Shown piece by piece: positions 6,060-62,141 of a stretch of DNA of 64,000 nucleotides. Position numbers and translations under genes: made by a program. This stretch comes from the human T2T-CHM13v2.0 reference genome, Homo sapiens, in the NCBI RefSeq assembly GCF_009914755.1, contig NC_060927.1; one strand, written 5' to 3'. Position 1 is the stretch's first letter. Every line of letters begins with the position of its first letter. The notes beneath the pieces were generated by a model. It searched no databases. It had not been told where the DNA came from and saw nothing but the letters and a program-made list of their open reading frames with translations.

Positions 6060-6600
6060 CGAAAAAATTAAAATTAAAAAACAAACAAACCAGGCGCAGA
6101 GCGGTTGTGGAGAAGGGAAGCGAAGGGTTGGAGTTTCGTTTCGTGGGAACCATAGAGAAGGGCCAGCCTCCCGGCTTCCTAGAGAGGCTGTAGGGACCGA
6201 CGGCCGGCCAGCTAATGCTTCCGTCTTGGCCACCTTGCGAGCGCTCGGGTTGAGTTTCCCGGGCTTCCCTGACTCGGCTACCTGTTCTGGAGGTCAGGCT
6301 TTGGGCCCTTGCAGAGGTCGCCGAGGGGCCCGCGCCGCCGCCAGAGCCTGGGCCCAGTCCCCAGTCTTCAGAGACGCCCTCGACCTTCCTGCTCCGAAGA
6401 GCTGGCCTGATGTCCTCGGGTCGCGGTATTCATGGGGAGGATGGGAGCCGTGACTATAGGGTCTCCTGCTTCCCAGGGTGGAGCGTTCAGATCCCGGTTA
6501 GGTCTTCGGTCAGCATCACCCGCTGGGACATTAAGCGTCTTACCCTTGTCACCCGGGGCTGGGTCACCACTTATATTTTGTCCTGCAGCCTGTGGTTTGT
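6060..6600 (+). promoter_or_regulatory. ZNF619: CpG-rich promoter and non-coding exon 1 of ZNF619 (predicted donor after 6425)
   Basis: High CpG/GC content; ETS-like GCTTCCG at 6217-6223; donor CGCG|GTATTC aligns with the ZNF621 donor CCCG|GTACTG; downstream intron homologous to 54365-54440. Confidence 0.75.
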
Positions 6601-7047
6601 TTAGGGGTCCCCGTTATATCCTACTTTCTCTCCAGAGACTTGTTTTGGGTTTTTGCCATGAACACTAGAAGCATTCAATACAAACTGTTTAGTAATGCAT
6701 TCATAGTGGGGCCAAGAATTTTTTTTAAAAAACAGCCACGAATCCACTGCAGTTCTTGACTCTTACTTTACAGATATTCTTTCTAGAGTTTCCAGTGTCA
6801 CCAAGCAGATCTATAGGAGAATATGCAGAGGGAGCATTTGCAACATCCCATGAATCAGTGGAGAGGGTGAATGACAGCAGCTAGTGTGCCAAGAATATCT
6901 GCAATGCTAGTGGCAGGAGACAGAGGGGAAGAGGCGGCAAGTGTAGGAGACGAGACAGATCAGTCTCATTGTGGTTCTCTCTTAGCTCCGCAGGTTCTTA
7001 CTTTTCCAAACCTAGAGGGCAGTGCATGAAGCCAGGGGTCATCAGCC

Positions 7048-7071
7048 ATGCTCCAGACAGTGTGGTTCCAG
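7048..7071 (+). CDS. ZNF619: ZNF619 first coding segment MLQTVWFQ (exon about 6986-7071)
   Basis: CAGCCATG context, CAG|GTGAGC donor, phase 0; paralogous to MFQTAWRQ and MLQTTWPQ. Confidence 0.9.
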
Positions 7072-9869: not shown

Positions 9870-10884
9870 CAAATCTTCTAGTACTTCTATGTTAGATTTC
9901 TTCACTCAGAAGAGACTTAAGTACAAAGAGAAGGTTGTTGACATGATGAATTGAGAAAGACTACAGTGTGAGTCAGAGATAGATGTTTTAATGGGACTAA
10001 TTTATATAAAAGTGGTCAGTTCATTTTGAACTTTTTGCTTCCTTATACAACCTTGTAATAAATACTCAAAGAGGACTCCTTTTAGTCTATTTCAAAGTGC
10101 TTAATATTGCTCATTCCCATCATCTGAAAATGGAAATAATAATTCTTATTTCACAGATGTGCTATAATGATTGAGCAAATTGATTTAAAAGTAACTGACA
10201 CAGGACAAAGCTTTAAACAACCTGTGATGGTGTCCTTCTTCCCTGAGAAGCTGGAGGTGGTTTTAGTGGGAAGCAGAAAGAGAGAGACACATAATGAAGA
10301 GGACAGCATTGGCAGGTCAGACAGAGCTTAGGTGATCAGTGGGCAGATTTCTGCAGAAGGATGGGAGATTGCCATCCTGTCCTGGAGTGAAGTGTGTTAG
10401 GAGACAAAGAAGTAACACTGCACATCACCTTCAAGGGAGAACTATTAATAGCTTCTGATAAGGCAAGATGATAGAAAGGGGAGAAATATCCAGGATGAAA
10501 GGAACTTTATCCTCATGAAATCACTCCTCTGTCTGTAGCAGAAGATGTAGAGGAGGAAGACCAGAAAGAAGCTGGGTGGAGGGCCCTGATACGTGCTTCA
10601 GGATGGATGGAGGCAGGGTGAAAGACGGTTACCTGCTGTGGTCGATTTAGAAAGCATGCCAGAAAAATATACCTGGCCTGTGGAACCAGACATGGGTTGA
10701 CATGATCACCAGGCAGAGAACAACAGGTGCTGGGCTGTGTACTTAGGATGATAATATTAGGGCCCCAGAGGTATGCACATGGAAAGTTGGAATGCTGGCT
10801 CGGGGCTGCCCCTGCTGGGGTCCTGTGTGGCTCTCCTTGCCAGTACAAACCTTCCATGGGGCTCAGTGCCATGGATTCCAGTAA

Positions 10885-11481
<597 letters not shown>

Positions 11482-35350: not shown

Positions 35351-35432
35351 AATCTCACCGGTGCTTCTTTATTTTCTCTTCAGTTTCACTTCTCCGAACC
35401 CTGAGGCAGTGTGTGAAGCTGGGACGCCAGCC

Positions 35433-35456
35433 ATGTTCCAGACCGCTTGGCGCCAG
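35433..35456 (+). CDS. ZNF620: ZNF620 first coding segment MFQTAWRQ (exon 35384-35456)
   Basis: CAGCCATG context; TTCAG| acceptor; CAG|GTGAGT donor. Confidence 0.92.
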
Positions 35457-53659: not shown

Positions 53660-54450
53660 CTGCACGGCCCAGGCTTCAGGTGAGCCACGGGGCCAAGGCG
53701 GCCAACAGCTGAGGCGCAGCCCGTGAACTGGGGGCCCACTTGTGCCTAGAGGGCGAGGTCTCGGTAGAGCCAGGCTGTATCAGTCCGTGACACTCCAGCC
53801 AGAGGCGATGCCGACGGCTGCCGGAGAAAGCCGGGCTTAGAGCGCCACAGTTCCACGCCCGCCGCCGGCCTCTCAGCCCAGCCGGTCGCCGCAACCTCGC
53901 CTCTTCCGCAGGGCGGGGCCAGCCATGAAAGGCGGGGCGGGTCTGGCCACGGGGCGACCGAGATGGCGGCCTCCGGGGGCCTAGAGGGACCCTGGGCGTG
54001 CACTCGCCCTTCCGGCTCGGCCTTTAGTTAGTGACCAGCTCCTCGGCGTTCTGCAGAGCGTGGGTTTCAGCGAGTTCTACGTGCCAGGTCCGCCCGGTGC
54101 CGGCTTCCTCGCTGCCCCTGGCGGCTCGTCAGCCCCCACTACCCCTGAACTTGGTCCCAATGGCGGCCCGCCCCTCCTTCACCCGGACCGTGGGCATCTG
54201 GGCCTCGCCGAAGCCGTCAAGGTGGCTGCTCGGGCTTCTAGAGCCCGTGTCCAGCCCTTTGCCACCGAGGCCTGATCCTCTTTTCTGCCCTAAAGAACTT
54301 GCCCTGACAGCCTCTGGCTCCCGGTACTGACGTTTCTGATGTTTGGGGTTGCCTGTTTTCTTGGGTGGAGTGTTAAGATCACGGTTGGGTGGGGTCTCCG
54401 GTCAGCATCACCCACTGGGACGCTGAGTATTTTACCCTTAATCCGCATTC
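53660..54450 (+). promoter_or_regulatory. ZNF621: CpG-island promoter and non-coding exon 1 of ZNF621 (predicted donor after 54323)
   Basis: CpG-dense; GC boxes about 53910-53941; YY1-type AGATGGCGGC at 53961-53970; ETS-like CTTCCGG near 54009. Confidence 0.82.
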
Positions 54451-54889
54451 AGCCACCCCAGTCCCTCTTCTCCTGAGGTTCTTTCTTTTGGGTCCACGTC
54501 ATCGTCCCTGTAAGCATTCTGTAAAGACTCTTTACGTTTGTAGAGACCCAACACAATAGGGACAGGGCTCTTGGGTCCCTCAGTTTACCCGTACGAATGG
54601 GCTCAAAAAAAGCTCTTCGGACTGAGCAGGCAGGTGGAAGATTGTCCTGAAGACTAGGCAGAACAATTCATAAGAAGTTTGGGGCTATCAGCGTGAGAAC
54701 AATTAGAGGGAGTCCTAGTAGAATCTCCGTGCATCCAGTGCTGGAAATGTGGAAACTGGGAGGGCCATAGGTTGCTGTAGGTGGTGGACGACAGGGTCCT
54801 TAGCACTCATGGCTCTTTTTCTCTTAGCTCTTGAGGATCTTGCTTGTCCAAACCCAGAAGACAGTGCATGAAGCCAGGGGACATCCGCC

Positions 54890-54913
54890 ATGCTCCAAAC
54901 AACTTGGCCTCAG
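54890..54913 (+). CDS. ZNF621: ZNF621 first coding segment MLQTTWPQ (exon 54828-54913)
   Basis: CCGCCATG context; CTTAG| acceptor; CAG|GTGAGC donor. Confidence 0.92.
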
Positions 54914-55404
54914 GTGAGCTGAGCTTCTTTCAGTTTTTTTGTTTGTTTGTTTATGTTTTTTTACTCACATTAGCTATCAGATAATCAGGAAAGGATGAGG
55001 AAGGCCTAACTTGGCCAAGCTGTGTTTTCCCCTTTGTATCTATCTCCAGGGCTATGGCAGATGTAAATATGTGCTGGGGAAATGAAAGTTTTGTGTATAG
55101 AGAGTGATGAGTTTGGATGTATAGATTTAAATGGAAGAAAGGGGACCTATACCAAGAAATTCTTTCTGAATGTGGAAATCCAGATCGTGTTCTAGAAATG
55201 AAAGTCACCTACTGAAATCAGACTCATTTTTTGTGAGACGGAGTCTCACTCTGTCGCCCAAGCTGGAGTGTAGTGGCACTATGATATCGGCTCACTGCAG
55301 CCTCTGCCTCCTGGGTTCAAGTGATTCCCATACCTCAGCCTCCTAAGTAGCTGGGATTACAGATGTGCGCCGCCACGTGTGGCTAATTTTTGTATTTTTA
55401 GTAG

Positions 55405-58027: not shown

Positions 58028-58522
<495 letters not shown>

Positions 58523-58718
58523 TAACAGTTTGCTATCTTCCTCAGATGTTTTGGGGATTCTAGTAGCCCTTGGGTTTGATGACTTCAGAGGAGAGTTTTG
58601 CAATCAGCAGCCTCCAGAAATACTGGGTAGGGAAATCCTTGGTTCTCTTTGTTTTTTGTTTGTTTGTTTGTTTTGTTTGTTTGTTTGTTTTGAGACAGAG
58701 TCTCGCTCTGTCACCTAG

Positions 58719-59259: not shown

Positions 59260-59367
59260 TAGCGTTTCCATTCCCCAAACCTGCTCTGATCTCCCACCTG
59301 GAGAGAGGGGAAGCACCATGGGGCCCAGATCCCTGGGACACCGAGATTCTGAGAGGCATCAGTCAAG
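59260..59367 (+). CDS. ZNF621: ZNF621 KRAB-B exon (NAGNAG acceptor, start 59260 or 59263)
   Basis: VAFPFPKPALISHLERGEAPWGPDPWDTEILRGISQ; AAGTAG acceptor; AAG|GTGAGT donor. Confidence 0.93.
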
Positions 59368-61080: not shown

Positions 61081-62141
61081 GTGGTGAGTCCTGGATCAAA
61101 AATGAAGGGCTAGTTATAAAGCAGGAAGCCTCTGAAGAAACAGAGTTGCACAGAATGCCAGTAGGAGGACTTCTCAGGAACGTTTCTCAGCACTTTGATT
61201 TTAAAAGGAAGGCACTGAAGCAGACTTTCAATCTAAATCCAAATCTGATACTTCGAGGTGGAATGAAGTTCTATGAATGTAAAGAATGTGGGAAAATCTT
61301 CCGATATAACTCAAAGCTTATTCGGCATCAGATGAGTCATACTGGGGAAAAGCCCTTTAAGTGTAAGGAGTGTGGCAAAGCTTTCAAGTCCAGCTATGAT
61401 TGTATTGTACATGAGAAAAACCACATTGGAGAAGGGCCCTATGAATGTAAGGAGTGTGGCAAAGGTTTGAGTTCCAACACAGCCTTGACTCAACATCAGA
61501 GGATCCACACTGGAGAGAAACCCTATGAATGTAAAGAGTGTGGAAAGGCTTTCCGTAGGAGTGCGGCATACCTGCAGCATCAGAGATTACACACGGGAGA
61601 GAAACTCTATAAATGTAAGGAATGTTGGAAAGCTTTCGGTTGTAGGTCACTTTTTATTGTCCATCAGAGAATTCATACTGGGGAGAAACCTTATCAATGT
61701 AAGGAGTGTGGCAAAGCCTTCACCCAGAAAATAGCCTCCATTCAGCATCAGAGAGTTCACACTGGGGAGAAGCCTTATGAATGTAAGGTGTGTGGGAAAG
61801 CCTTCAAATGGTATGGAAGTTTTGTTCAGCATCAGAAATTGCACCCTGTGGAGAAGAAGCCAGTCAAGGTCCTTGGGCCATCCCTGGTCAGTCCCCAGTG
61901 CTCCTCTCCAGCCATACCTCCTGTTCTTCTCCAGGGATCCTGTTCTGCTTCAGCCGTAGCTGTGCCTTCACTGACCTTTCCACATGCTGTGCTCATTCCT
62001 ACCTCTGGGAATTTTTTCATGCTGCTGCCTACATCTGGAATACCTTCTTCATCTGCCCAAATAGTGCGTGTCTTCCAGGGTCTTACTCCCACTGTGAAAC
62101 CTTCCCCAGTTATTCTCACCCCTTCTTCTCACTCCTCATGA
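61081..62141 (+). CDS. ZNF621: ZNF621 zinc-finger exon: short spacer, 7 C2H2 fingers, Pro/Ser-rich tail
   Basis: ORF 61062..62141; GTCAG| acceptor; 24+127+108+1061 nt gives 439 aa. Confidence 0.95.

What the first reader, a model, noticed from the sequence alone, without database searches (positions are those of the whole stretch)
54868..54913. Same upstream ATG preserved in ZNF621 but absent from ZNF620
Seen: ZNF621 has the same ACAGTGCATGAAGCCAGGGG context, the same 22-nt offset and an open frame (MKPGDIRHAPNNLAS plus 1 nt). It stops after 20 codons if KRAB-A is included and gives 403-404 aa if it is skipped. ZNF620 has GTG at the equivalent position (35413), 44 nt from the donor, so it has neither the start nor the phase. 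Inference: retention in two diverged paralogues hints at selection, though a 46-nt stretch could persist by chance or as a translation-dampening uORF.
Basis: partly seen in the sequence, partly recalled or inferred. Interest (0 to 1): 0.7.

Follow-up and report, generated by a model that had tools for sequence, protein, structure and literature searches.

The report
Lineage-variable upstream ATG in ZNF621
The upstream start codon in ZNF621 is real and could start a repressor-domain-less protein if one exon is skipped, but many other mammals lack it, so it looks like an ordinary, weakly used upstream start rather than a conserved feature.

Summary
ZNF621 exon 2 has an ATG at 54868, 22 nt upstream of and out of frame with the annotated ATG at 54890. 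The frame stays open for 15 codons plus 1 nt to the donor at 54913. It stops after 20 codons if the 127-nt KRAB-A exon is included, and gives 404, 403 or 368 aa if that exon is skipped. ZNF619 has the same arrangement; ZNF620 has neither the ATG nor the phase.

The hint of selection does not hold. The context is weak (T at -3, A at +4). Chance alone gives such an ATG in 17% of shuffled leaders, and 68/86 identity leaves a triplet intact 49% of the time. Public ZNF621 orthologue models from 13 species read through the site with a non-ATG triplet, and in two squirrels the ATG is in frame with the main start. A 7,264-ORF Ribo-seq catalogue lists a different ZNF621 uORF but not this one.

The skipped-isoform idea is plausible. 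A bat ZNF621 model of 401 aa starts at this ATG, lacks KRAB-A, and aligns end to end with the human conceptual isoform.

Verdict: an overlapping uORF start of a known kind, variable between lineages and of low interest.

The parts
54868..54870 (+). Upstream ATG of ZNF621 exon 2. Weak context (cagtgcATGa: T at -3, A at +4).
54868..54913 (+). Exon-2 part of the upstream reading frame: 15 codons plus 1 nt, ending at the exon 2 donor.
54869..54871 (+). TGA in the frame of the annotated ATG, overlapping the upstream ATG by two bases. It closes the main frame upstream of 54890. Orthologue models have an Arg, Gln or Trp codon here.
   Evidence: frame translations and orthologue segments
54890..54892 (+). 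Annotated ZNF621 start codon. Better context (tccgccATGc: G at -3).
   Evidence: hub annotation
58370..58386 (+). End of the 20-codon overlapping uORF inside the KRAB-A exon (stop at 58384-58386).
58370..58496 (+). KRAB-A exon, 127 nt (3n+1). Skipping it puts the upstream ATG in the zinc-finger frame and puts the annotated ATG out of it (8 codons only).
59260..59367 (+). KRAB-B exon with tandem acceptors at 59260 and 59263. It is the first exon joined to exon 2 in the conceptual 404/403-aa isoform.
61081..62141 (+). Linker plus zinc-finger coding part of the last exon. It was used as the query for orthologues.
54160..54834 (+). Another uORF of the selected transcript: 56 codons, spliced 54160-54323 plus 54828-54834, in the same frame as the upstream ATG, ending 33 nt before it. 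This one is listed as a translated Ribo-seq uORF.
54809..54811 (+). ATG in the last 20 nt of intron 1, in frame with the annotated ATG. Whale and pig models start at the equivalent ATG and read through to the main start; in human the TGA at 54869 blocks this.
7026..7071 (+). Equivalent upstream ATG and open 46 nt in ZNF619 exon 2.
35413..35456 (+). Equivalent stretch in ZNF620: GTG instead of ATG, 44 nt to the donor, no long frame.

Best explanation
The ATG at 54868 is a weak-context upstream start codon, out of frame with the main ORF.

- On the canonical ZNF621 mRNA it opens a 20-codon uORF that overlaps the main start and ends in the KRAB-A exon.
- Most scanning ribosomes should bypass it by leaky scanning and start at 54890. 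The few that use it cannot make ZNF621 from that mRNA, so its expected effect is a mild reduction in translation, possibly with NMD. This step is inferred from the scanning model and was not measured.
- On any mRNA that skips the 127-nt KRAB-A exon, it is the only AUG that opens the zinc-finger frame. It would give a 403/404-aa protein with KRAB-B and the fingers but without the KAP1-binding KRAB-A box. The frame relationship is shown here; the existence of that mRNA in human was not tested.
- The codon is not a conserved feature of the gene. It comes and goes among mammals at what is most simply a CpG site (ACG to ATG). Its presence in both human ZNF619 and ZNF621 is not good evidence of selection.
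For: - Sequence, frames and lengths.
- Kozak contexts: (T at -3 and A at +4, against G at -3 for the annotated ATG).
- Chance levels: 0.17, 0.49 and 0.11.
- Orthologue models. Of 122 proteins held, 31 matched an exon-2 frame and 23 cover the site.
  - 14 models from 13 species read the main frame through it with Arg (10 species), Gln (2 bovids) or Trp (camel). None of these can have ATG there.
  - Two squirrel models have the ATG in frame with the main start.
- The exon lies outside the promoter CpG island: CpG observed/expected is 0.11-0.23 around exon 2, against 0.8-0.87 at exon 1.
- The bovid Gln codon is one CpG-type step from CGA, which fits a CGA/ACG ancestor in that group (inference).
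- In the 24-nt overlap, the main frame is better kept between ZNF619 and ZNF621 (6/8 residues) than the upstream frame (3/8).
- The 7,264-ORF Ribo-seq catalogue table lists one ZNF621 ORF, the 56-aa uORF, and two ZNF619 ORFs. None is this one.
- No Rfam match and no unusual RNA structure: z = -0.10, +1.47 and +0.45.
Against: - Exon 2 as a whole is about as similar between the two old paralogues (68/86) as the coding exons are, while most intron sequence no longer aligns. Some constraint therefore acts on this exon. The 19 nt around the ATG are its best-kept stretch, and that exact 19-mer occurs only at these two places in the genome.
- For ZNF619, all 3 non-human models that show the site have ATG (Miniopterus, Muntiacus, Ursus), so the codon may be old in that gene.
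- Main-frame extended models can exist only where the TGA/ATG is absent. The 13-to-3 count is therefore biased and is not a frequency.
- By simple parsimony, ATG and ACG as the ancestral state of ZNF621 cost about the same number of changes.
- Two bat models use this frame for a KRAB-A-less protein, one of them (P0017) starting at this ATG.
- Absence from one Ribo-seq catalogue is weak evidence.
Confidence: 0.6

Rival explanations
1. The ATG is a functional alternative start, kept by selection at least in the human lineage and in ZNF619. KRAB-A-skipped mRNAs are translated from it into a finger-only protein that binds DNA without recruiting KAP1 and competes with the full-length repressor.
For: - Exact phase match in both genes, and in every exon combination that lacks KRAB-A.
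- It is the only AUG in that frame after the TGA at 54832-54834, and the first AUG of the short-leader transcript.
- Bat models P0017 (401 aa; 343/401 identical to the human conceptual isoform; no KRAB Pfam domain) and P0046.
- ATG present in 3 of 3 informative non-human ZNF619 models.
- ZNF621 is reported to undergo regulated alternative splicing, although the legend names 'exon1'.
- KRAB-less isoforms are described for another KZFP, ZNF71 (listing).
Against: - No ATG in 13 species for ZNF621, and the phase is lost in two squirrels (ZNF621) and in a bear (ZNF619).
- Weak Kozak context.
- The upstream-frame peptide is poorly kept between the paralogues: 3/8 residues in the overlap.
- Not in the Ribo-seq catalogue.
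- A search with the bat N-terminus found no other cluster that covers it: 1 of 7 hits.
- Automated models pick the longest ORF, so they do not show translation.
Confidence: 0.2
2. The 19-nt identity around the ATG reflects a nucleotide-level element, such as a splicing enhancer for the short exon 2 or a protein-binding site. The ATG is then only a passenger in it.
For: - Exon 2 and its splice-site flanks align between the paralogues while the introns do not.
- The leader part is also nearly constant across orthologue models from whales, pig, bats, carnivores and marmoset.
- The exact 19-mer is found only in these two genes.
Against: - A run of 19 or more is expected in 11% of trials at this identity.
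- The central triplet itself varies among species: ATG, ACG-type, ACA-type, CTG.
- No RNA family or structure signal.
- No binding or splicing data could be consulted.
Confidence: 0.12
3. The ATG is pure coincidence and has no consequence. Ribosomes essentially never start there, and no skipped mRNA exists.
For: Chance levels; absence from the Ribo-seq catalogue; weak context.
Against: An AUG in a 5' leader, even in weak context, normally captures some scanning ribosomes (established scanning model, from recall). In the short-leader transcript it is the first AUG.
Confidence: 0.08

Closest known systems
Overlapping upstream ORFs (uoORF/oORF) read by leaky scanning
   Same: An AUG in the 5' leader, out of frame, ending downstream of the main start. 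Weak context upstream and a better context at the main AUG.
   Different: Translation is not shown: it is absent from the 7,264-ORF catalogue table. The AUG is not conserved among orthologues.
KRAB-less or KRAB-A-less isoforms of KRAB zinc-finger genes (ZNF71 in the listing; ZNF268 and ZNF74 from recall)
   Same: Alternative splicing removes the repression box and leaves the finger array. Here the frame after skipping is rescued by an upstream AUG.
   Different: No human ZNF621 transcript or protein of this kind was seen here. The only direct instances are automated models from two bats.
uAUGs created or destroyed by CpG transitions in 5' UTRs (general knowledge, from recall)
   Same: The site reads as an Arg codon (most simply CGA, which makes the triplet ACG) in 10 species, and as a Gln codon one CpG-type step away in 2 bovids. 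Human has ATG/TGA, and the exon lies in CpG-depleted DNA.
   Different: Nucleotide states in other species are inferred from protein models, not read from DNA. The direction of change is not resolved.

Membership tests
Overlapping upstream ORF (uoORF) | AUG in the mature 5' leader upstream of the annotated start | tested here: met
   ATG at 54868 is in exon 2 of all three leader variants tried.
Overlapping upstream ORF (uoORF) | Out of frame with the main ORF and ending downstream of the main AUG | tested here: met
   22-nt offset; 20 codons; stop at 58384-58386 in exon 3.
Overlapping upstream ORF (uoORF) | Ribosome-profiling evidence of translation | tested here: inconclusive
   The supplementary table of PMC10032668 (7,264 ORFs) has 1 ZNF621 row and 2 ZNF619 rows, none of them this ORF. 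Other catalogues could not be opened because paper reading closed.
Overlapping upstream ORF (uoORF) | Conservation of the uAUG in orthologues (expected for regulatory uORFs) | tested here: not met
   Non-ATG triplet in 14 models from 13 species. ATG in 3 non-human species, two of them in a different phase. The sampling is biased.
Alternative start codon of a KRAB-A-less KZFP isoform | The start codon is in the zinc-finger frame once the KRAB-A exon is skipped | tested here: met
   404, 403 and 368 aa from 54868; 8 to 18 aa from 54890 on the same skipped mRNAs.
Alternative start codon of a KRAB-A-less KZFP isoform | KRAB-A-skipped transcripts exist in human | not testable with these tools
   No RNA-seq or full transcript table was available. 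The hub table lists only exons that differ. The SAM68 paper reports a ZNF621 splicing event labelled 'exon1'.
Alternative start codon of a KRAB-A-less KZFP isoform | The same isoform is modelled or observed in orthologues | tested here: met
   P0017 (Hipposideros, 401 aa, no KRAB Pfam domain, 343/401 identical to the human conceptual isoform) and P0046 (Miniopterus ZNF619). These are automated models in two species only. The search found no further cluster with this N-terminus.
Alternative start codon of a KRAB-A-less KZFP isoform | Start codon and phase kept across orthologues | tested here: not met
   ATG absent in 13 species; in frame with the main ATG in 2 squirrels (ZNF621) and in Ursus (ZNF619).

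The most novel reading that the evidence does not exclude
One CpG-derived base in exon 2 acts as an evolutionary toggle between two N-terminal options.

- In the ACG/CGA state, the main frame is open upstream and there is no upstream AUG.
- In the ATG/TGA state, that extension is closed, and a new AUG opens the zinc-finger frame on KRAB-A-skipped mRNA.

On this reading, lineages that flipped the base (human ZNF621 and ZNF619, a horseshoe-type bat) gained a non-repressing, finger-only competitor of their own repressor.
Probability: 0.1. Interest if true: 0.5.

Novelty: new member of a known kind. Interest (0 to 1): 0.22.

Why it matters
If the upstream ATG were used, ZNF621 and ZNF619 could each make two proteins: a KAP1-recruiting repressor, and a finger-only protein that occupies the same sites without repressing. 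The balance would be set by skipping of one exon. As the evidence stands, it is one more weak upstream AUG in a 5' leader. Its main practical value is as a caution: an element shared by old paralogues can be produced or erased by recurrent CpG decay, so the orthologues need to be checked before inferring selection.

Tried and rejected
- **Other paralogues.** A search of the window's own genome with exon 2 found only the exon itself and ZNF619 (2 matches). The 19-mer pattern with up to 2 mismatches gave 74 places against 4 for the reversed control. Only the two exact ones lie in this gene cluster. The one hit in a chr19 zinc-finger region was read and has no ATG 22 nt downstream of the matched ATG and no exon-2-like splice donor after it.
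- **Structured RNA.** No Rfam match at E up to 1 in 54500-55200. Fold energies of the three exon 2 sequences are ordinary.
- **Literature.**
  - 'ZNF621' occurs in 63 papers; none of the 25 listed concerns its leader or isoforms, judging by title and abstract start.
  - 'KRAB' + 'exon skipping' + 'upstream ATG' + 'zinc finger' gave 0 papers.
  - Passages of PMC2865497 held nothing on start codons or exon phase.
- **Third-frame orthologue models.** Dingo P0012 and hyena P0030 were dropped as uninformative, because His is encoded by both CAT and CAC.
- **Further isoforms with the upstream-frame N-terminus.** The search with P0017 residues 1-45 gave 7 hits of 10 candidates, and only the query cluster covers the N-terminus. 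Clustering at 90% may hide isoforms.
- **Further main-frame extensions.** The search with P0005 residues 27-66 gave 5 of 5 candidates, all already held.

Full report
**1. The observation**

The annotated ATG lies 22 nt downstream at 54890.
- From 54868 to the donor at 54913 there are 46 nt: 15 open codons plus one base.
- A script that joined the annotated exons confirmed the rest:
  - With the 127-nt KRAB-A exon, the frame closes after 20 codons (stop at 58384-58386).
  - Without that exon, the frame runs 404 aa into the zinc-finger ORF, or 403 aa with the tandem acceptor at 59263.
  - Without exons 3 and 4, it runs 368 aa.
  - On the same skipped mRNAs, the annotated ATG gives only 8 to 18 codons.
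- ZNF619 has the identical 19-nt context, an ATG at 7026 and the same 22-nt offset, and gives 532 aa when exon 3 is skipped.
- ZNF620 has GTG at 35413, a 2-nt deletion and 44 nt to the donor, with no long frame.

**2. Is it more than chance?**

- The two exon 2 copies are 68/86 identical: 31/40 before the ATG, 20/22 between the two ATGs, and 17/24 in the coding part. The longest identical run is 19 nt.
- With 18 mismatches placed at random, a given triplet survives in 49% of trials, and a run of 19 or more appears in 11%.
- Shuffling the 62-nt leader part of exon 2 gives an ATG in the skip-compatible phase, open to the donor, in 17% of trials.

Nothing inside the window lifts this above chance plus common ancestry.

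**3. Surroundings**

- The upstream ATG has a weak context (T at -3, A at +4). The annotated ATG has G at -3 within tccgccATGc.
- The selected transcript also has a 56-codon uORF starting at 54160. It ends at 54834, in the same frame as the upstream ATG and 33 nt before it.
- In the short-leader variant (54009-54087 plus exon 2), the upstream ATG is the first AUG of the mRNA.
- After the TGA at 54832-54834, it is the only AUG in the zinc-finger-compatible frame.
- Exon 2 lies outside the promoter CpG island: CpG observed/expected is 0.11-0.23 here, against 0.8-0.87 at exon 1.
- There is no Rfam match and no unusual RNA folding: z = -0.10, +1.47 and +0.45 for the three exon 2 copies.
- The exact 19-mer occurs only at ZNF619 and ZNF621 in the whole assembly. 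A look-alike on chr19 is not a homologous exon.

**4. Age of the paralogues**

- Between the ZNF621 and ZNF619 genes, only the exons and short flanks align collinearly. Identities are 82% for the exon 2 block, 78% for exon 3 plus 184 nt of upstream intron, 83% for exon 4 and 75% for the finger exon. The rest of the introns match only through interspersed repeats.
- A protein search with the linker and finger exon returned proteins named ZNF621 from elephant, aardvark, golden mole, tenrec, manatee, anteater and armadillo, as well as from many boreoeutherians. It also returned proteins named ZNF619 from elephant and many others.
- Both genes therefore predate the eutherian radiation. The placement of those taxa comes from my own knowledge.
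- Exon 2 as a whole is under some constraint.

**5. Orthologue evidence at the site**

I compared the three reading frames of human exon 2 with the N-terminal parts of all 122 proteins held. Of these, 31 matched, and 23 of the 31 span the site.

*Models that read the main frame through the site.* Human has TGA there, overlapping the ATG.
- Arg: marmoset, pygmy sperm whale, sperm whale, jaguar, cat, Arctic fox, Miniopterus (a read-through model, P0036), Pipistrellus, warthog and pangolin (two isoforms).
- Gln: buffalo and goat.
- Trp: dromedary. Here a second model in the third frame fixes the bases as a CTG-type triplet.
- In total these are 14 models from 13 species in which the triplet cannot be ATG.

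*Models that show ATG.*
- ATG is present in Hipposideros armiger (P0017).
- ATG is present in two ground squirrels, but there it is in frame with the main start, so the phase is lost.

*ZNF619 orthologues.*
- ATG is seen in Miniopterus (P0046) and in Muntiacus (a model flagged low quality).
- ATG is also seen in Ursus, where it is in frame with the main start.

*Caveats.*
- Three third-frame models were seen. The two without a partner in another frame (dingo P0012, hyena P0030) are uninformative, because His is CAT or CAC; the third (dromedary P0122) helped fix the camel bases above.
- Models that extend the main frame can exist only where the TGA/ATG is absent. The 13-to-3 tally therefore shows that loss or absence is common, but it is not a frequency.
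- The Arg codon one step from TGA is most simply CGA, which makes the triplet ACG, a CpG. The bovid Gln codon is one CpG-type step from CGA.
- Simple parsimony does not decide whether ATG or ACG is ancestral for ZNF621.
- CpG hypermutability in methylated, CpG-poor DNA makes repeated ACG-to-ATG changes the cheaper story. This is inference.

**6. The skipped isoform**

- P0017 ('ZNF621-like isoform X2', 401 aa, no KRAB Pfam domain) starts with the upstream-frame peptide and joins it directly to the KRAB-B exon.
- It aligns end to end with the human conceptual 403-aa isoform, with 343 of 401 aligned residues identical.
- P0046 (Miniopterus ZNF619 X2) reads the same frame into KRAB-B from a start further upstream; 398 of 531 aligned residues are identical.
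- A search with the first 45 residues of P0017 found no other cluster that covers that N-terminus: 7 hits of 10 candidates, with only the query cluster at full coverage.
- Whether human makes the skipped mRNA could not be tested. A paper on SAM68 lists ZNF621 among validated alternative-splicing targets, and its supplementary legend calls the event 'exon1' (passages and one legend seen).

**7. Translation evidence**

- The supplementary table of PMC10032668 lists the 7,264 catalogued human Ribo-seq ORFs. It has one ZNF621 entry (the 56-aa uORF), two ZNF619 entries (a 19-aa uORF and an internal ORF) and none for ZNF620. The overlapping ORF studied here is not listed for either gene (table rows seen).
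- This is weak negative evidence.
- Paper reading closed, so no further catalogue could be checked.

**8. Coding constraint in the overlap**

- In the 24 nt shared by both frames, ZNF619 and ZNF621 agree at 6 of 8 residues in the main frame but at 3 of 8 in the upstream frame.
- The visible constraint therefore belongs to the main ORF, not to the upstream-frame peptide.

**9. Conclusion**

- The feature is a genuine upstream AUG of a familiar kind: an out-of-frame overlapping uORF start in weak context.
- Its expected effect on the canonical mRNA is mild dampening through leaky scanning. This is inferred and was not measured.
- It has a real but unproven potential to start a KRAB-A-less protein on exon-3-skipped mRNA.
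- KRAB-less isoforms of KZFPs are already described for other genes (ZNF71, listing; others from recall).
- I found nothing in print on this ATG in ZNF621.

Noticed in passing
window 54869-54871 (ZNF621) and 7027-7029 (ZNF619): The same base that makes the upstream ATG also makes a TGA in the main frame. In ZNF619 this TGA is the stop of the catalogued 19-aa Ribo-seq uORF that starts at 6410, so that uORF's stop overlaps the upstream ATG (ATGA).
   Followed up: partly
window 54809-54811: An ATG in the polypyrimidine tract of intron 1, in frame with the annotated start. Whale and pig ZNF621 models begin at the equivalent ATG and carry a 27-residue N-terminal extension; in human the TGA at 54869 closes it.
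   Followed up: partly
window 54828-54889, compared with orthologue models P0005, P0016, P0019, P0058, P0066: The 'untranslated' part of exon 2 is nearly constant, when read as protein, across marmoset, whales, fox, bat and warthog. This suggests strong nucleotide-level conservation of the leader, of unknown cause.
   Followed up: no
window 58186-58369 vs 10782-10932: About 180 nt of intron upstream of the KRAB-A exon still align at 78% between ZNF621 and ZNF619, although the rest of the introns do not. ZNF619 uses an acceptor 27 nt upstream (10933), which makes its exon 3 154 nt long.
   Followed up: no
window 58546-58626: An annotated alternative 81-nt exon of ZNF621 is open in frame. It adds 27 residues between KRAB-A and KRAB-B (466 aa from the main ATG; 431 aa from the upstream ATG if KRAB-A is skipped).
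   Followed up: partly
P0036 (Miniopterus natalensis, named ZNF619 isoform X4): This model joins a ZNF619-like N-terminus to ZNF621 exon 2 and the ZNF621 body. It looks like a read-through or fusion model across the two neighbouring genes.
   Followed up: no
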